In this document: piece after piece, positions 217 to 15,899 of the stretch
How positions within the stretch are numbered: the stretch's first letter is position 1
How the letters are laid out: the number at the start of each line of letters is the position of its first letter
From: Escherichia coli phage NG_S8
Sequence record: LC788711.1
Strand: one strand, 5' to 3'
DNA: 64,000 bases
Program-made: the position numbers and the translations under genes
The notes under the pieces: generated by a model
What the model saw: the letters and a program-made list of their open reading frames with translations, nothing else
The model's database searches: none
What the model was told of the DNA's origin: nothing

Positions 217-855
217 TTACTCTACTTCGATAAAAGTAGAGGCGTTGGACTCAGACAGAACAAAGTCAACGTTGGTTGCAAAGTCCTGGTACTCTTCGTC
301 GTGTTGCTTGATCAGCTTTTCCAGCTCCAGCGGATCGATCAGGAACGGAGTGTTCTTGAGTTCCAGCAGGTTAAGCTGCATCTTAACTTCATCCTCGGAA
401 GTCTTCTTGTCACGGGTAGCCATGGTATCCTGCAAACGCTCATACTTGGCATCAAACTGAGCCTTTTGAGTGTTAAACTTAACAGTAGCAGCATGGAACT
501 GCTTACGCATGTTAGCCAGCAACTGAGCTTTGAGTTCCATAGAACGCTTAGCTTCGATTGCTTCCGCAACAGTCATAGAGCGGGAACCGATCTCTACAAC
601 AGTTTCAGCATTGCTCTTGATCAGCGCTGCTTTCAGATGATCACGCTGGGTCATCATATCCAGCAGAGACTGGAAATCAGTTTTAATACGAGTAGACAGA
701 GCATCTACTTCGATTGCAGCACCAACGACAACTTGATTCTTGTCTTTACCTTCACCAACAGCAATCAAAAGCTGTTGTTCAGTAGCTTTACGGATTTTAG
801 CTTCCAGAGACTTGATAGTTGCCAGAGCACGAGTTTTAGAGATACGAGTAGTCAT
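217..855 (-). CDS. hypothetical protein, predicted coiled-coil, Lys/Glu-rich
   Basis: 212 aa ORF in the track; compact spacing with neighbouring minus-strand genes; no recognisable catalytic motif. Confidence 0.55.
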   Translation of the reverse strand: MTTRISKTRALATIKSLEAKIRKATEQQLLIAVGEGKDKNQVVVGAAIEVDALSTRIKTDFQSLLDMMTQRDHLKAALIKSNAETVVEIGSRSMTVAEAIEAKRSMELKAQLLANMRKQFHAATVKFNTQKAQFDAKYERLQDTMATRDKKTSEDEVKMQLNLLELKNTPFLIDPLELEKLIKQHDEEYQDFATNVDFVLSESNASTFIEVE

Positions 856-3379: not shown

Positions 3380-3868
3380 TTACATCTCAGCAAGTTCTTG
3401 CTCAGTAATTACAGTATTGCATAGAGCATCAACTTCTTCATTACCACGAATACCTGAGTGACCTTTAACCTTAACAAAGGTTGGATTGGTATCATGGAAG
3501 TTAATATACTGTTGAGTTAGTTTAAATGCTTCTTGCCAGAGTTCTAGATTAAGAGGAGTTTCACCATCTCCCTTCTTCCAGCCTTTCTTCTGCCAAGACC
3601 ACATCCAGCTTTCCATACCATTTTTGCAGTAAGCAGAATCAGTGTAGATAATTACTGGACGATTATCTTTCTTAGTAGACCAACGAAGAACTTCTACAAT
3701 TGCAGTAAGTTCCATTTCGTTATTAGTAGTTTTAGGGCTGAAGCCAGATTTAGAGCCAATACGATCATCATTATCATTATAGACAACGAATCCCCACGCA
3801 CCTAAACCAGGATTGCCTTTACATGCACCATCTGTATATATGTGGAAAACCGACATTATTTGCTCCAA
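3380..3868 (-). CDS. rnh: ribonuclease H (RNase HI family)
   Basis: YTDGACKGNPGLGAWG at the N-terminus, NNEMELTAIVE, IIYTDSAY, KVKGHSG...NEEVDALC: the canonical RNase HI active-site layout. Confidence 0.9.
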   Translation of the reverse strand: MEQIMSVFHIYTDGACKGNPGLGAWGFVVYNDNDDRIGSKSGFSPKTTNNEMELTAIVEVLRWSTKKDNRPVIIYTDSAYCKNGMESWMWSWQKKGWKKGDGETPLNLELWQEAFKLTQQYINFHDTNPTFVKVKGHSGIRGNEEVDALCNTVITEQELAEM

Positions 3869-4125
3869 TCAATTTCAAGCCAAAAACCTTCACGCTGTTC
3901 ATACTTAGCTTCTACAACATAACCTAGTTTGCTAAGTTTTTGCATGACGCTATTTCTAGCGTTTTCTGAGTATTCAGTTAATCCCTGGATGTGACAGTTA
4001 AATTCTTTATCTTTAATAGCTTTGTCAATCTCTACGGCAATAAGTGATTCTAGGTCAATTACTTCCTTTTTAATGCTAGCAATAGTATTTTGTTTTGCTT
4101 CTAAAGCAGATAAAAGAATAGACAT
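3856..4125 (-). CDS. hypothetical protein
   Basis: 89 aa ORF; its stop overlaps the rnh start. Confidence 0.45.
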   Translation of the reverse strand: MSILLSALEAKQNTIASIKKEVIDLESLIAVEIDKAIKDKEFNCHIQGLTEYSENARNSVMQKLSKLGYVVEAKYEQREGFWLEIDWSK

Positions 4126-4127
4126 AT

Positions 4128-4706
4128 TTATTCTCCAATTACTAAAACATCATGTTGGGAAGATACACCACACATATAATCTGCACAATGCGTAAAAGCC
4201 AGATCAATGATTTCAAATATATCATCTACATCTAAATCTGTGGCTCGACAATCCGCAATAGCTAAACCTGTACGAATACTGGAAAGTACATCTTCTCCTC
4301 CACAGCCTACACCGGCATATTCAACTTCTAGAATAGAAGCATTAGATTGGAAAATAAAGATTCTTCCTTTGTAGAGCATAATAAATTGTCCCAGATTAGG
4401 TTCAGCATATTTTTCATTTTTCTTTTCGCCAAAATCTTTCTGGTTAAACATATCACGTAATTTAGGTACTATTTCCGTATATAAATATTTATCATCGGAA
4501 ATATCTGCTAAACGTGGTGGTACAGTAAAGCTATGCTCTAGTAATTGTCCCATGTAGAAGGAACTAGTGTATCCGAAGTACAAATCATCAGAGATTTTGA
4601 ATACTTTCGGATTTTTAACCAGCAGTTTCGTATAGCCATTAGAACCCATACGATCACCAGCTAAGTATACTTTATCTTTATATTTAAATGCTACTATGGC
4701 TGTCAT
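4128..4706 (-). CDS. HslV / proteasome beta-subunit-like N-terminal nucleophile hydrolase
   Basis: Begins MTAIVAF (Thr directly after the initiator Met), AGD motif, Lys about 30 residues in, GVGCGG matching the GSGG region of HslV; 192 aa fits the family size. Confidence 0.55.
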   Translation of the reverse strand: MTAIVAFKYKDKVYLAGDRMGSNGYTKLLVKNPKVFKISDDLYFGYTSSFYMGQLLEHSFTVPPRLADISDDKYLYTEIVPKLRDMFNQKDFGEKKNEKYAEPNLGQFIMLYKGRIFIFQSNASILEVEYAGVGCGGEDVLSSIRTGLAIADCRATDLDVDDIFEIIDLAFTHCADYMCGVSSQHDVLVIGE

Positions 4707-4780
4707 TATTAAATCCTTCTGTCAAATTAGAAGTATATTATATTTGAATTTCACTCAGTAAGCAAATGAAATTTAAATAT

Positions 4781-4800
4781 AATAGCCCCGAAGGGCTATT
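4781..4800 (-). terminator. palindromic hairpin terminator/attenuator
   Basis: AATAGCCC-CGAA-GGGCTATT followed on the minus strand by a T-rich tract. Confidence 0.5.
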
Positions 4801-4804
4801 TGAA

Positions 4805-5158
4805 TTAGATTATAATCAAGATTATTAGGGCGTATGTCAGATAATGCAGTAACTGATCAAATCCTAAAGCTATCCAAAACTTAGCATCGCTTATAGCGTA
4901 TTTACAGCGTTGTGCTTTCCAATAATCTATAATAAAGTGTAGAATTAATTCCATAATAGCTAAAGCTATAGACATTCCTGGTGATGTGAATAGGATTAGA
5001 ATTGCAAATGTTAATCCAGCATGTACTAGCGAATGGGTTAATAATGGAAGTTTCCACCCTATTTTATGCGTCTTTCTTAGCATATATGGTGTTTGGAGTG
5101 GATAATCGGCCATAAAATGTTTTAGAAAGAATATGACAAATAATAGTATAATTAACAT
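4805..5158 (-). CDS. small integral membrane protein
   Basis: 117 aa, three or four hydrophobic helices (LIILLFVIFF, GLTFAILILF, ALIILIII). Confidence 0.55.
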   Translation of the reverse strand: MLIILLFVIFFLKHFMADYPLQTPYMLRKTHKIGWKLPLLTHSLVHAGLTFAILILFTSPGMSIALAIMELILHFIIDYWKAQRCKYAISDAKFWIALGFDQLLHYLTYALIILIII

Positions 5159-10248: not shown

Positions 10249-10491
10249 TTACCATTTAAGTTTATCGGCTTGATCAAGTAATTGCTGTTGTATTTCTTGG
10301 TTAAAGAGAATATCTACAGAAGTACTTAGTTCATTATAATTGAAAGGCCGATTTGGATTAGAGGCTACAATTTTCCACGCTAGGGTAGTCTTAGGACTTT
10401 CTTCCCCTTCCTTACGTGTAATCATATTAGCAGCGCTCAGTGAAGTACGGTGGATCTTAGTTTTGCGGTGCAGATGTACGACGTTTCCCAT
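10249..10491 (-). CDS. hypothetical protein
   Basis: 80 aa ORF between nrdA and phoH. Confidence 0.4.
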   Translation of the reverse strand: MGNVVHLHRKTKIHRTSLSAANMITRKEGEESPKTTLAWKIVASNPNRPFNYNELSTSVDILFNQEIQQQLLDQADKLKW

Positions 10492-14065: not shown

Positions 14066-14228
14066 TTTAGAAAATATGCTTATGGAGCAGTGGAATGCTG
14101 GGTATAATGCTGGAGTAGCTACCTGTATTGCTGGTTTGGATATGCTTATTAAGCAAGAGAAGGTTCGCCCAGAAGAAGCAATTCTGCTCCAAAATATCAT
14201 CGAAGGATTCAAGCAAGGAATCATATAA
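14034..14228 (+). CDS. hypothetical protein (start uncertain; the track begins this frame at 13950)
   Basis: ATG at 14034 (MDFLNQ...) gives a 64 aa product ending just before the Sir2-like gene; overlaps the previous ORF in another frame. Confidence 0.35.
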   Translation: MDFLNQNLKSNLENMLMEQWNAGYNAGVATCIAGLDMLIKQEKVRPEEAILLQNIIEGFKQGII

Positions 14229-15079
14229 TGCGTAGACTAATCGTTGTTAGTGGTGCAGGTTTGAGTGTAGATAGTGGTGTTCGTGCTTTCCGTACTGATA
14301 CTGCTAGTGGGAAATCCTTGTGGGATGAGTACGATCTAGAGGAAGTATGTAGCTTGCCTAACTTTGAAGCTGGCTTCCGTCGCTTCTGTGGTGAAGATGA
14401 TCCTAACTACTTCAGTGCTCGTTTCCCTGGCATTGATAAAGATGGTAACGATCTGTATCTCAAGACTCATGAGTTCTACAACATGCGTCGTCAGGAATTA
14501 CAGACTGTTGAGCCTAACATTGCCCATCTGCGAATTGCAGAATGGTTCCAGCGTTATGGTGCGGATAGCGTGAAGAACTTCACTACTAACGTTGATGACC
14601 TTCTGGAACGTGCTGGTATCCCTCGTGATGAAATCATTCACGCTCACGGGTACTTGAAAGAGGTGATCTATCGTCAGGGTCGCAACCAAATCATCGAAGA
14701 TGTTGGGTATACTGCGATTGCCCCTGAGGATTACGAATGGGTAAAACCAAACGTAACATTCTTTGGTGAGACGGCTCCGTGGTATATGGGTCAGATTAAC
14801 CTGTTTGATACACTTACTAGCAATGATATGGTTATTGTAGTAGGTTGTAGCAACCAAGTAATCGACTTCAACTGGGAGCTATTTCCTGCTGTATGTCGTG
14901 GAACTAAGATGATGGTTGTTAACCCACAAGTTCGTTATGACGAACAGCTTGAGTATGAGAAACGTGGTGTTACTGTATGGCGTGCTGGAGCTGCCGAAGT
15001 TTTTGGTAATAAACACTTTATTGATCAAGTTGAAGCTTTTATGGAGGGAAATATTTATGTCCCAGAAAAGCATGTGTGA
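14228..15079 (+). CDS. Sir2 (sirtuin)-like NAD-binding protein
   Basis: VVSGAGLSVDSGVRAFR (GAGIS..SGIP.FR), TTNVDDLLERAG (TQNIDGLHERAG), HAHG (catalytic His), VVGCS (VVGTS); no CxxC...CxxC zinc ribbon. Confidence 0.8.
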   Translation: MRRLIVVSGAGLSVDSGVRAFRTDTASGKSLWDEYDLEEVCSLPNFEAGFRRFCGEDDPNYFSARFPGIDKDGNDLYLKTHEFYNMRRQELQTVEPNIAHLRIAEWFQRYGADSVKNFTTNVDDLLERAGIPRDEIIHAHGYLKEVIYRQGRNQIIEDVGYTAIAPEDYEWVKPNVTFFGETAPWYMGQINLFDTLTSNDMVIVVGCSNQVIDFNWELFPAVCRGTKMMVVNPQVRYDEQLEYEKRGVTVWRAGAAEVFGNKHFIDQVEAFMEGNIYVPEKHV

Positions 15080-15239
15080 TCTTTTAGTATGGCCAGACGG
15101 TAGTTGGTGCTACCGTTTCGAATTTGCTACTGATGACTTCTCATGGAAGAGTGATGATTTCTGCGTTATCTATGAGGATACAGCAGAATGGAAAGAGTTC
15201 CTTATTAAGGAGGGAGAATATGGTGAAGAAGATTTTTAA
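15055..15239 (+). CDS. small hypothetical protein
   Basis: ATG at 15055 with GGAGGG 8 nt upstream; 61 aa; overlaps the Sir2-like stop. Confidence 0.4.
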
Positions 15240-15405
15240 GGGTATCTGGAAAGGTCTAGTATGGTTTGTCAACCTAATCGGTATGATTACCATTTATTCT
15301 CTGTTCCTATCTGTTATGTGGGGTAAAGGTGAATTGAAGGTTCCAGTTCCTTTTACTGATGAAGTTAAAGTCTGGACGTGGGATGCTACTGGTGGAAATA
15401 AGTAA
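15220..15405 (+). CDS. small membrane protein
   Basis: ATG at 15220 after AGGAGGGAGA; 61 aa with one hydrophobic helix (GLVWFVNLIGMITIYSLFLSVMW). Confidence 0.45.
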   Translation: MVKKIFKGIWKGLVWFVNLIGMITIYSLFLSVMWGKGELKVPVPFTDEVKVWTWDATGGNK

Positions 15406-15899
15406 TACTCCTGTGATTTTCCTGGATATTGATGGGGTGCTCAATTCGAGCATCTCTCACCATCATGCTCCAGATAGTGAGAAGCTATTCTTTGGGGGTG
15501 ATTGGGTTTACAAGCCATTACTCCAGGCTTTTCAGAACTTTCTTGAGCCATCCCCAATAATGATTGTTGGGGTATCTTCATGGTTTTCTGTACGAAATGA
15601 AATGGAGAACGTTCAGATTATGACCGGACTCGGTTTGATCGATCGTTTTCTTGGTACAACAGATTTTACTGGAGGTGGTTTATCTCGGGGGTAATTCTGT
15701 TTTACGTTTTGTCGAAAAATATAAGCTCAAGCATTGGTGTGTCCTAGATGATGCTGGTGCTATGATGTATCAATTTCCTACTGTTATTGTAAACGGCAGG
15801 ACTGGAATAAACCTTCAAGATTTAAACGCTATCAGCTATATGCTGGAGTTTAGTCCAGATCTTGAAATGTGTAAGGCTCTTCAGAAACTTAAGGTATAA
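15359..15899 (+). pseudogene. HAD-superfamily phosphatase-like gene split by a frameshift at a G5 run (15687-15691)
   Basis: HAD motif I FLDIDGVLNS in frame A (15359-15694), motif-III-like VLDDAG in frame B (15651-15899); removing one G from GGGGG joins the frames into one ORF of about 180 aa. Confidence 0.5.

What the first reader, a model, noticed from the sequence alone, without database searches (positions are those of the whole stretch)
4128..4706. HslV/proteasome-beta-like Ntn hydrolase encoded in the early operon
The ORF starts Met-Thr, which would leave Thr as the N-terminal nucleophile after Met removal. It has an AGD motif, a conserved-position Lys and a G-x-G-x-G-G segment matching HslV's GSGG region, and the size (192 aa) fits the HslV/20S beta fold. 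No HslU-like ATPase is nearby, so it may use a host unfoldase or work alone. A phage proteasome-like protease could degrade host defence or regulatory proteins.
Basis: partly seen in the sequence, partly recalled or inferred. Interest (0 to 1): 0.6.

Follow-up and report, generated by a model that had tools for sequence, protein, structure and literature searches.

The report
Phage proteasome-like threonine peptidase gene
The gene is a real proteasome/HslV-type threonine peptidase carried as an optional early gene by a T5-like Salmonella phage, but public databases already label it that way and its role in infection is still unknown.

Summary

Thr2, Asp18, Lys34, Gly45 and Gly134 are invariant across 168 family representatives. 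Gly136 is kept in 167 of them. The residue matching proteasome Ser129 is Cys in this protein and in 64% of the family.

It is not an HslV orthologue. Identity to HslV is 16-19%, no NCBIfam HslV model hits, and the pore loop is about 10 residues longer. The phage encodes no HslU. No neighbouring gene is conserved across 28 loci, and relatives occur in Actinobacteria, a phylum a published survey lists without HslV. It most likely belongs to the phage-associated group I proteasome homologues catalogued by Fuchs, Alva and Lupas (2021), probably AAH.

The window is 100% identical to Epseptimavirus phages. RefSeq already calls this protein "peptidase HslV family". The gene lies in an AT-rich variable slot between thy and rnh, behind a promoter conserved with an annotated T5 promoter. 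T5 itself lacks the gene.

Function is untested, so interest is modest.

The parts
4128..4706 (-). CDS of 192 aa plus stop codon: proteasome-like (T1 family) N-terminal-nucleophile threonine peptidase homologue
4701..4703 (-). Thr2 codon. Predicted catalytic N-terminal nucleophile (Thr1) after host methionine aminopeptidase removes Met1.
   Evidence: Thr in 168 of 168 family sequences, and 161 of 167 homologues start MT. Aligned to Thr1 of HslV and PrcB. Codon position. Met removal itself is inferred from BPH expressed in E. coli (PMC5777263).
4653..4655 (-). Asp18 codon, equivalent to proteasome Asp17
   Evidence: Invariant in 168 of 168. Aligned with the G-D of HslV and PrcB.
4605..4607 (-). 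Lys34 codon, equivalent to proteasome Lys33
   Evidence: Invariant in 168 of 168. Aligned column for column with E. coli HslV Lys33 by hhalign.
4545..4574 (-). Family signature G45-Y-T-S-S-F-Y-M-G-Q54. Gly45 lies in the predicted strand of residues 42-46 and is the likely oxyanion-hole glycine (proteasome Gly47).
   Evidence: Gly45 is 168 of 168. Thr47, Ser49, Phe50, Gly53 and Gln54 are each at least 93% conserved. Strand 42-46 and helix 50-59 are in the model. The exact register against HslV Gly45 differs between alignments.
4299..4307 (-). G134-C135-G136, the counterpart of the G-S-G of HslV, BPH and 20S beta. Cys135 occupies the place of proteasome Ser129 / BPH Ser139, which hydrogen-bonds Thr1.
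   Evidence: Gly134 168 of 168, Gly136 167 of 168. Position 135 is Cys in 108, Ser in 50 and Ala in 6. Aligned to IGSGG of HslV and VGSGS of PrcB. The role of the Ser is from PMC5777263.
4386..4439 (-). Residues 90-107, the 'pore loop' between helix 2 and the next strand. It is 18 residues with net charge 0 and lower model confidence.
   Evidence: Model helix 71-89 and strand 108-112, block pLDDT 70. About 10 residues longer than in E. coli HslV. Family median length 15 and median net charge -1.
4737..4765 (-). Sigma-70-type promoter: -35 TTGCTT (4765-4760), 17-nt spacer, -10 TATAAT (4742-4737)
   Evidence: Coordinates. The segment 4731-4807 is 81% identical to T5 DNA that includes the annotated T5 promoter upstream of rnh. 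The generic scan did not list it because the -35 hexamer matches only 3 of 6 consensus bases.
4714..4718 (-). Shine-Dalgarno AAGGA, 7 nt upstream of the ATG
   Evidence: Read directly from the sequence.
4781..4800 (-). Hairpin AATAGCCC-TTCG-GGGCTATT between the upstream DUF3307 gene and the promoter. It may be a weak terminator or an RNA-stability element.
   Evidence: Conserved in T5. Not called a terminator by the scan because the T-run is short.

Best explanation
The ORF encodes a catalytically competent threonine N-terminal-nucleophile peptidase. It belongs to a large proteasome-like family that occurs in diverse phages and, scattered, in bacterial genomes, alongside but separate from HslV and BPH. 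It is most likely the AAH cluster of Fuchs, Alva and Lupas (2021).

Proposed mechanism:
1. The gene is transcribed early by host RNA polymerase from its own T5-type sigma-70 promoter. This is shown by homology to an annotated T5 promoter.
2. Host methionine aminopeptidase removes Met1 and exposes Thr as residue 1. There is no propeptide. This step is inferred from HslV and BPH.
3. Subunits assemble through the four flanking helices into a homo-oligomer, probably a double ring with internal active sites. This is inferred, because only one homologue exists in the genome and helices H1-H4 are intact.
4. The Thr1 hydroxyl attacks peptide bonds, assisted by Lys34 and Asp18, with Gly45 forming the oxyanion hole and Cys135 bonding the Thr1 amine. 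This is inferred from invariant residues.

The enzyme probably does not depend on a dedicated or HslU-type unfoldase. It would act on peptides, unfolded proteins or a narrow set of targets.

For the phage it is an optional accessory gene, not part of the core programme. Its substrates and its benefit to the phage are unknown.
For: - Sequence: Pfam PF00227 above threshold. The family profile hits HslV at 3e-6, PrcB at 5.6e-4 and BPH at 4e-3. hhalign to E. coli HslV gives probability 84% and E = 7e-6, with Thr2, Asp18, Lys34 and the GxGG segment in register.
- Constraint: Thr2, Asp18, Lys34, Gly45 and Gly134 are invariant across 168 representatives, and Gly136 is kept in 167. 161 of 167 homologues begin MT.
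- Family size: 6925 clusters at 50% identity with E <= 1e-3, and 943 with E <= 1e-30.
- Stand-alone gene: no neighbouring gene family recurs across 28 phage and bacterial loci. There is no second homologue and no HslU in the phage.
- Independence from HslU: relatives occur in Actinoallomurus and Amycolatopsis. The published survey table shows no HslV entry for Actinobacteria or for phages.
- Accessory status: T5 lacks the gene. Window 3897-4730 is replaced by about 15 nt in T5. About 125 T5-like records carry the gene, against 431 that share the flanks. GreteKellenberger carries a different gene in the slot. The slot genes are 32-34.5% GC, against 38-41% for the flanking core genes.
- Promoter.
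- Precedent: Met removal that exposes Thr1 without a propeptide was shown for BPH expressed in E. coli (PMC5777263).
Against: - No biochemical or genetic data exist for this protein or any member of its family. Six literature searches found none.
- BPH, the closest structural match, was inert in standard peptidase and casein assays despite a complete active site. Intact catalytic residues therefore do not guarantee general protease activity.
- The residue that bonds Thr1 is Cys rather than Ser, and the effect on catalysis is unknown.
- Ring assembly and stoichiometry could not be modelled here.
- Assignment to AAH rests only on length, helix content and taxonomic spread, because the published reference sequences could not be obtained.
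- E. coli and Salmonella hosts do have HslU, so its use by this particular protein is not excluded.
Confidence: 0.65

Rival explanations
1. Hijack of a host unfoldase. The phage subunit forms HslV-like hexameric rings that dock onto host HslU, or another host AAA+ unfoldase. This builds a hybrid ATP-dependent protease with altered specificity, or titrates HslU away from host HslV.
For: The hosts, E. coli and Salmonella, encode HslU next to HslV. The phage has no unfoldase of its own. HslV is the best sequence-profile match and the best Foldseek match by E-value. Like HslV, the protein starts Met-Thr with no propeptide. The same phage also carries a ClpP-like gene without an unfoldase.
Against: Identity to HslV is only 16-19%, and no NCBIfam HslV model hits. 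The pore loop is about 10 residues longer than in HslV, so the stretch aligned with HslV's Arg86/Arg89/Lys90 region differs. The position aligned with HslV Lys28, the contact for the HslU C-terminal carboxylate as I recall it, is Ile, Val or Leu across the family. Relatives occur in Actinobacteria, which the survey table lists without HslV. No ATPase gene is linked in any of 28 loci. BPH, the closest structure, lost its HslU interface residues.
Confidence: 0.15
2. A specialised, sequence-specific processing enzyme or transpeptidase, as connectase is, rather than a degradative compartment. It would cut or ligate one phage or host protein.
For: Connectase shows that proteasome-like folds with Thr1, Asp and Lys can act as monomeric, sequence-specific ligases. 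BPH's inertness towards generic substrates suggests that stand-alone homologues have narrow specificity. The family-specific invariant motif G-Y-T-S-S-F-x-M-G-Q near the substrate channel has no counterpart in HslV.
Confidence: 0.1
3. A catalytically dead scaffold or decoy that only binds a host factor. At the extreme, a chance ORF that is not a gene.
For: The Thr1-bonding Ser is replaced by Cys, and BPH shows no activity in vitro.
Against: Every catalytic residue is invariant across 168 diverged representatives, which dead enzymes do not normally maintain. Cys and Ser alternate conservatively at position 135. The ORF has a Shine-Dalgarno sequence and a promoter, an above-threshold Pfam hit and thousands of homologues.
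Confidence: 0.04

Closest known systems
AAH, PPH and CPH: phage-associated group I proteasome-like homologues (Fuchs, Alva and Lupas, Bioinformatics 2021, PMC8665760)
   Same: Compact proteasome-beta-like subunit with no propeptide and no C-terminal H5 helix. Conserved Thr1, Asp17, Lys33 and oxyanion Gly. Found in Caudoviricetes phages and scattered across Proteobacteria, Actinobacteria, Firmicutes and other phyla. Function unknown. AAH fits best in length and in having all four helices.
   Different: PPH is described as about 140 aa and lacking helix H2, whereas this protein has 192 aa and a predicted H2 at residues 71-89. Hits in Planctomycetes fall outside the phyla ticked for AAH in the paper's Table 1.
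BPH (bacterial proteasome homologue; PDB 5OVS, 5OVU)
   Different: 13-19% identity, and the profile E-value is only 4e-3. BPH's pore loop is strongly acidic, whereas this one has net charge 0 and the family median is -1. BPH has Ser at the Thr1-bonding position where this protein has Cys. Whether this protein forms BPH's 14-subunit double ring is unknown.
HslV (ClpQ), peptidase of the HslUV protease
   Same: Same fold, similar size (176 aa for E. coli HslV) and the same Met-Thr start. Thr1, Asp17, Lys33 and the G-x-G-G segment align in register. Best profile E-value among solved structures, 3e-6. Public records label the phage protein 'peptidase HslV family'.
   Different: 16-19% identity. No NCBIfam HslV model hits. 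No hslU gene is adjacent or anywhere in the phage. The pore loop is about 10 residues longer. Cys replaces Ser in G-S-G-G. The published table lists no true HslV in phages.
20S proteasome beta subunit (Pfam PF00227, MEROPS T1)
   Different: No propeptide, no alpha-subunit partner or second paralogue, and no C-terminal H5 helix. NCBIfam 20S beta equivalog models score far below their cut-offs, 14.7 against 191.9 bits.

Membership tests
Proteasome-like family (Pfam PF00227 / MEROPS T1 Ntn hydrolases) | Sequence match above the curated family threshold | tested here: met
   38.5 bits against a 22.4-bit gathering score, E = 1.2e-9, residues 2-189 on profile positions 5-188 of 189.
Proteasome-like family (Pfam PF00227 / MEROPS T1 Ntn hydrolases) | Alpha-beta-beta-alpha sandwich fold with helices H1-H4 flanking two central sheets | tested here: met
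Proteasome-like family (Pfam PF00227 / MEROPS T1 Ntn hydrolases) | Catalytic Thr1 (or Ser1), Asp17 and Lys33 | tested here: met
   Thr2, Asp18 and Lys34 align with the catalytic residues of HslV and PrcB. Each is invariant in 168 of 168 relatives.
Proteasome-like family (Pfam PF00227 / MEROPS T1 Ntn hydrolases) | Oxyanion-hole Gly (proteasome Gly47) | tested here: met
   Gly45 lies in the strand of residues 42-46, before H1, and is invariant in 168 of 168. hhalign places it 3 residues away from HslV Gly45, so the register is not certain.
Proteasome-like family (Pfam PF00227 / MEROPS T1 Ntn hydrolases) | Ser in the G-S-G motif that hydrogen-bonds Thr1 (proteasome Ser129, BPH Ser139) | tested here: not met
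   The aligned residue is Cys135. Across the family it is Cys in 108, Ser in 50 and Ala in 6. This is a conservative variant, not a loss of the motif.
HslV proper (ClpQ) | Match to the curated HslV equivalog model | tested here: not met
   An NCBIfam scan at E <= 10 lists only 20S beta models far below their cut-offs, plus one unrelated ligase model, also far below its cut-off. No HslV model appears. phmmer of E. coli HslV against the phage ORFs gives E = 2.6.
HslV proper (ClpQ) | Partner hslU gene, normally adjacent | tested here: not met
   In E. coli, hslU lies 9 nt downstream of hslV. tblastn with HslU finds nothing in the window or in the first 100 kb of the identical phage. No AAA+ unfoldase is annotated. 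No linked ATPase appears in 28 loci.
HslV proper (ClpQ) | Short H2-to-strand linker with the basic cluster Arg86/Arg89/Lys90 at the pore | tested here: not met
   An 18-residue loop with net charge 0, about 10 residues longer than in E. coli HslV. The HslV feature is described in PMC5777263.
HslV proper (ClpQ) | Dodecamer of two hexameric rings, with peptidase activity that depends on HslU and ATP | not testable with these tools
   No multimer modelling or biochemistry is available here.
BPH | No propeptide, with Met removal exposing Thr1 or Ser1, and no partner unfoldase | tested here: met
   Met-Thr start, which 161 of 167 homologues share. No linked ATPase.
BPH | Elongated, highly acidic pore loop | tested here: not met
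   The loop is elongated but not acidic. Net charge is 0 in this protein, and the family median is -1 with a range of -5 to +4.
BPH | Tetradecamer of two heptameric rings | not testable with these tools
   Only monomer prediction is available.
PPH (Fuchs et al. 2021) | About 140 residues, lacking helix H2 | tested here: not met
   192 aa, with helix 71-89 predicted at high confidence. Relatives that BLAST covered only partly are in fact 174 to about 320 aa.
AAH (Fuchs et al. 2021) | Clusters with the AAH reference sequences (for example WP_035979212) | not testable with these tools
AAH (Fuchs et al. 2021) | Compact group I subunit found in Alphaproteobacteria, Actinobacteria, Firmicutes and many phages | tested here: inconclusive
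   Relatives occur in Devosia, Leisingera, Actinoallomurus, Amycolatopsis, Paenibacillus and Oceanobacillus, but also in Planctomycetes and Deinococcus. They are present in many phages. This is consistent with AAH but not specific to it.
20S proteasome beta subunit | N-terminal propeptide removed autocatalytically, an alpha-ring partner, and a C-terminal H5 helix | tested here: not met
   No residues other than Met precede the Thr. No second proteasome-like ORF exists in the phage. The model ends with a strand at residues 185-190.

The most novel reading that the evidence does not exclude
The phage subunit assembles into rings that capture a host AAA+ unfoldase such as HslU. Alternatively it acts alone with a narrow specificity set by its family-specific G-Y-T-S-S-F-x-M-G-Q motif and Cys135. 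Either way it would selectively destroy a host regulator or anti-phage defence protein early in infection. That would make it the first functionally defined viral proteasome-like protease, and an anti-defence or host-takeover factor.
Probability: 0.12. Interest if true: 0.75.

Novelty: already known. Interest (0 to 1): 0.3.

Why it matters
Proteasome-type proteases encoded by phages have been catalogued, but none has been characterised. Nobody knows whether they form rings, need an unfoldase or have defined substrates, or what they do for the virus.

This copy sits in a tractable system. The T5-like phages that carry it infect E. coli K-12. Natural carriers (BASEL phages IrmaTschudi and TrudiRoth) and a natural non-carrier (GreteKellenberger) are available for comparison. 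The gene is therefore a convenient entry point for experiments.

As a genome-scan finding it adds little. The identical protein is already labelled 'peptidase HslV family', 'proteasome subunit-like' or 'threonine-type endopeptidase' in public records.

What this analysis adds:
- The HslV label is too specific. The protein belongs to a separate family of thousands of clusters.
- The Thr1-bonding Ser is usually Cys in this family.
- No partner gene is conserved next to it.
- It is an optional gene in a variable, AT-rich slot that T5 has lost or never filled.

Tried and rejected
- Literature. Eight full-text searches were run. They combined HslV, proteasome homologue, phage, T5 and Epseptimavirus, and looked for papers citing the 2021 survey. 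Only the 2021 catalogue and the BPH structure paper were relevant. No functional study of a phage homologue turned up.
- Defence-system link. A PADLOC scan found no family.
- Conserved partner gene. An all-against-all BLAST of ORFs around 28 phage and bacterial homologues found no recurrent neighbour. The only recurrences were antisense shadow ORFs and a PhoH-like gene 3-6 kb away in three phages, which is probably coincidence.
- The 89-aa ORF immediately downstream (3856-4125) as an obligate partner. Rejected. It occurs in 223 phage records, against about 125 T5-like records that carry the peptidase, and it is present in GreteKellenberger without the peptidase. The small ORFs next to the homologue in Erwinia, Vibrio and 121Q phages are unrelated to it.
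- PPH identity for relatives that BLAST covered only at residues 1-136. Rejected, because those genes encode 174 to about 320 aa.
- Domains in the C-terminal extensions of some relatives. Pfam found nothing.
- A second paralogue or an HslU in the phage. None found.
- Assignment to a named cluster of the 2021 survey. The paper's supplement holds no sequences. Cluster look-ups gave no matching accessions. The AFDB fold library was unavailable.
- Generic promoter and terminator scan. It did not list the promoter, because its -35 hexamer matches only 3 of 6 consensus bases, and it found no terminator. The promoter call rests instead on homology with the annotated T5 promoter.

Full report
**1. What is in the sequence**

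Window 4128-4706 holds one ORF on the minus strand. It encodes 192 aa and ends in TAA. The ATG at 4706-4704 is the first start codon after the upstream in-frame stop. It is preceded by AAGGA at 4718-4714, so the Met-Thr start is not in doubt.

**2. Where the window comes from**

The 2-kb neighbourhood is 100% identical to several Salmonella phages of the genus Epseptimavirus (Demerecviridae, T5-like), for example phage 3-29 and OSY-STA. Window position plus 33245 gives the position in NC_048145.

RefSeq already names this protein 'peptidase HslV family' (YP_009818963.1). Other depositors call identical copies 'proteasome subunit-like protein' or 'threonine-type endopeptidase', and UniRef calls it 'ATP-dependent protease'.

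**3. Is it really a proteasome/HslV-type Ntn hydrolase?**

Yes.
- Pfam PF00227 (Proteasome) matches residues 2-189 at 38.5 bits, against a cut-off of 22.4.
- PHROG 1040 'peptidase HslV family' matches at E = 1.9e-21.
- A profile built from 17 homologues finds HslV (3e-6), bacterial and archaeal 20S beta (5.6e-4) and BPH (4e-3) among solved structures. Thr1, G-D, Lys33 and G-S-G are all aligned.
- hhalign against E. coli HslV, taken from the MG1655 genome, gives 84% probability and E = 7e-6. It pairs Thr2 with Thr2, Asp18 with Asp18, Lys34 with Lys34 and GCGG with GSGG.
- An AlphaFold2 model built from the alignment is confident (pLDDT 90.3, pTM 0.88). It shows the expected order of strands and four helices and ends in a strand, with no fifth helix.

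**4. The family and its constraints**

An exhaustive profile search finds 6925 clusters at 50% identity with E <= 1e-3, and 943 with E <= 1e-30. I aligned the query with the 167 sequences retrieved.
- Thr2, Asp18, Lys34, Gly45 and Gly134 are invariant.
- Gly136 is present in 167 of 168.
- The stretch G-[YF]-T-[ST]-S-F-[RY]-M-G-Q is a family signature that HslV does not have.
- 161 of the 167 homologues start Met-Thr, so the family has no propeptide.
- At the position of proteasome Ser129 (BPH Ser139, which hydrogen-bonds Thr1), the family has Cys in 108 sequences, Ser in 50 and Ala in 6. The query has Cys135.

This pattern is what purifying selection on a working active site would produce. The Cys is a family peculiarity of unknown consequence.

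**5. It is not HslV proper**

- Identity to HslV structures is 16-19%.
- No NCBIfam HslV model hits, even at E <= 10.
- The loop between helix 2 and the next strand, the 'pore loop', has 18 residues and net charge 0. The family median is 15 residues and charge -1. It is about 10 residues longer than in E. coli HslV. In HslV this loop is a short linker beside a basic cluster, and in BPH it is long and strongly acidic. This protein resembles neither.
- The residue aligned with HslV Lys28 is Ile, Val or Leu across the family. From memory, not tested here, Lys28 contacts the C-terminal carboxylate of HslU.
- tblastn with E. coli HslU finds nothing in the window or in the first 100 kb of the identical phage. 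The annotation lists no AAA+ unfoldase.
- There is only one proteasome-like ORF in the phage.

**6. Which known group does it belong to?**

Fuchs, Alva and Lupas (2021) catalogued many new proteasome homologues (PMC8665760). Their group I, made up of HslV, BPH, AAH, CPH, PPH, RPC and DPH, is compact, and the members other than HslV have no propeptide. PPH, AAH and CPH occur in phages, while true HslV is not listed for phages or for Actinobacteria.

PPH is described as about 140 aa and lacking helix 2. This protein has 192 aa and a confident helix at residues 71-89, so PPH does not fit. Phage hits that BLAST covered only over residues 1-136 turned out to be genes of 174 to about 320 aa, not short PPH-like genes.

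A scan of one genome per bacterial species for the signature motif found relatives in:
- Devosia and Leisingera
- Actinoallomurus and Amycolatopsis
- Paenibacillus and Oceanobacillus
- Planctomycetes, Polyangiaceae and Deinococcus, among others

This spread fits AAH ('alpha-proteobacterial and actinobacterial homologue', also common in phages) better than any other named cluster. I could not obtain the reference sequences, so the assignment remains an inference.

BFVD holds about 30 viral cluster representatives with this fold. They include Gordonia, Caulobacter, Pseudomonas, Vibrio and jumbo Erwinia phages.

**7. Genomic setting**

The gene lies in the T5-type early region, with the order nrdA, nrdB, frd, thy, a DUF3307 membrane protein, this gene, an 89-aa ORF and rnh, all on the minus strand.

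Thirty-one nucleotides upstream of the ATG is a promoter: TTGCTT (4765-4760), a 17-nt spacer, then TATAAT (4742-4737). A GC-rich hairpin precedes it at 4800-4781. Segment 4731-4807 is 81% identical to T5 DNA that includes a promoter annotated between thy and rnh. This is the basis for calling the gene 'early'. The generic promoter scan missed the site because its -35 hexamer matches only 3 of 6 consensus positions.

T5 itself has no such gene. Window 3897-4730, which covers the peptidase and most of the 89-aa ORF, is replaced by about 15 nt. T5 still keeps a relic of roughly 40 nt from the 3' end of the 89-aa ORF in front of rnh.

Among phage records, 431 share the flanking DNA, but only about 125 T5-like records carry a copy that is at least 90% identical. 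The BASEL phage GreteKellenberger has an unrelated 84-aa ORF in the slot. Erwinia phage KEY has a 51%-identical homologue flanked by different small ORFs.

The three slot genes are 32-34.5% GC, against 38-41% for the flanking core genes. The gene is therefore an optional cargo gene in a variable slot.

**8. Search for a partner**

ORFs around 28 homologues, 5 from phages and 23 from bacteria, share no recurrent neighbour. The adjacent 89-aa ORF (phrog_13270, function unknown) is more widespread than the peptidase, with 223 records, and it occurs without the peptidase. It is not an obligate partner. PADLOC finds no link to known defence systems.

**9. Most likely mechanism**

Shown:
- the fold
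- a complete and invariant catalytic set
- no propeptide
- a single copy in the phage
- its own promoter
- accessory status
- no linked ATPase

Inferred:
- Host methionine aminopeptidase exposes Thr1, as was measured for BPH made in E. coli.
- Subunits form homo-oligomeric rings through helices H1-H4.
- Hydrolysis proceeds by the Thr1/Lys33/Asp17 mechanism, with Cys135 in the place of Ser129.
- The enzyme works without HslU.

The last point rests on four observations: relatives occur in Actinobacteria, which the survey table lists without HslV; the pore loop and the Lys28 position are unlike HslV; BPH is the closest structure; and no ATPase is linked.

I put 0.65 on this package. The weakest parts are ring assembly and independence from an unfoldase. 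BPH is inert in standard assays despite a perfect active site. That is a warning that substrates may be narrow or that a cofactor may be missing.

**10. Rival explanations**

- Hijack of host HslU or another unfoldase: 0.15.
- A sequence-specific processing enzyme or ligase like connectase: 0.10.
- An inactive scaffold, or not a gene at all: 0.04.

**11. Novelty and score**

The identification is correct but already in the databases, and phage-encoded proteasome homologues were described in 2021. No functional work was found.

This analysis adds four things:
- a more precise placement: not HslV, but a separate large family
- the Cys-for-Ser observation
- the absence of any conserved partner gene
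- the variable-slot context, with natural carrier and non-carrier phages on E. coli K-12

Interest is 0.3 and the novelty class is 'already known'. The most novel reading still open is a host-takeover or anti-defence protease, possibly through a captured host unfoldase. I give it about 0.12 probability, and it would deserve about 0.75 interest if true.

Noticed in passing
window 3856-5158 (minus strand), compared with L003 (T5), L033 (GreteKellenberger) and L004 (Erwinia phage KEY): The gap between thymidylate synthase and RNase H is a variable cargo slot in T5-like phages. T5 has only a promoter there. GreteKellenberger has an 84-aa plus an 89-aa ORF. This window has a DUF3307 membrane protein, the peptidase and the 89-aa ORF. 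KEY has other small ORFs around a 51%-identical peptidase. The slot genes are 32-34.5% GC, against 38-41% for the flanking core genes.
   Followed up: partly
window 3856-3896 compared with L003:8890-8930 (T5, upstream of rnh): T5 keeps a relic of about 40 nt from the 3' end of the 89-aa ORF directly in front of rnh. This suggests that the T5 lineage lost the peptidase and the 89-aa ORF by deletion, rather than this phage gaining them.
   Followed up: partly
window 3856-4125 (minus strand): An 89-aa ORF (phrog_13270, no Pfam hit) starts 2 nt after the peptidase stop codon and overlaps the RNase H start. It occurs in 223 phage records, more than carry the peptidase. Function unknown.
   Followed up: partly
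window 4805-5158 (minus strand): A 117-aa multi-pass membrane protein (Pfam DUF3307; PHROG 2470, 'moron / host takeover' category) lies just upstream of the peptidase. It is absent from T5. Function unknown.
   Followed up: no
L005:4001-5454 (Aeromonas phage 2L372D): Two different proteasome-like genes lie side by side. gp210 (183 aa) belongs to this family. gp211 (294 aa) is the core PHROG 1040 type with a C-terminal extension. This hints at a hetero-oligomeric phage 'proteasome'.
   Followed up: no
proteins P0031, P0036, P0046, P0051 and relatives (metagenomic homologues): Some family members carry an acidic C-terminal extension of 70-200 aa that ends in a shared motif resembling ...K(Y/F)PHNIG..(K/T)L..K(I/L).... 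To my eye it looks like a helix-extension-helix (Rho_N/SAP-like) DNA-binding tail. Pfam found nothing.
   Followed up: partly
L002:11072-11671 (phage 3-29, outside the window): The same phage also encodes a ClpP-like protein annotated 'ATP-dependent protease'. It therefore has two compartmental-protease-type subunits and no unfoldase of its own. Phage 121Q likewise has a ClpP-like gene two genes upstream of its homologue (L007:3065-3673).
   Followed up: no
window 217-855 (minus strand), and the small ORF at about window 10249-10491: RefSeq labels these early-region ORFs 'tail fiber protein' and 'tail length tape measure protein'. Given their size and their position among nucleotide-metabolism genes, these look like mis-transferred family names.
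   Followed up: no
window about 14228-15898 (plus strand): The identical RefSeq record annotates two separate ORFs here as Sir2 (NAD-dependent deacetylase). A Sir2-like gene also sits next to the homologue in phage 121Q (L007:4820-5572).
   Followed up: no
window 3380-3868 (minus strand): The mechanical ORF call for RNase H starts at a TTG (162 aa). RefSeq starts it at the ATG 12 nt downstream (158 aa), which overlaps the stop codon of the 89-aa ORF in an ATGA-like junction.
   Followed up: no
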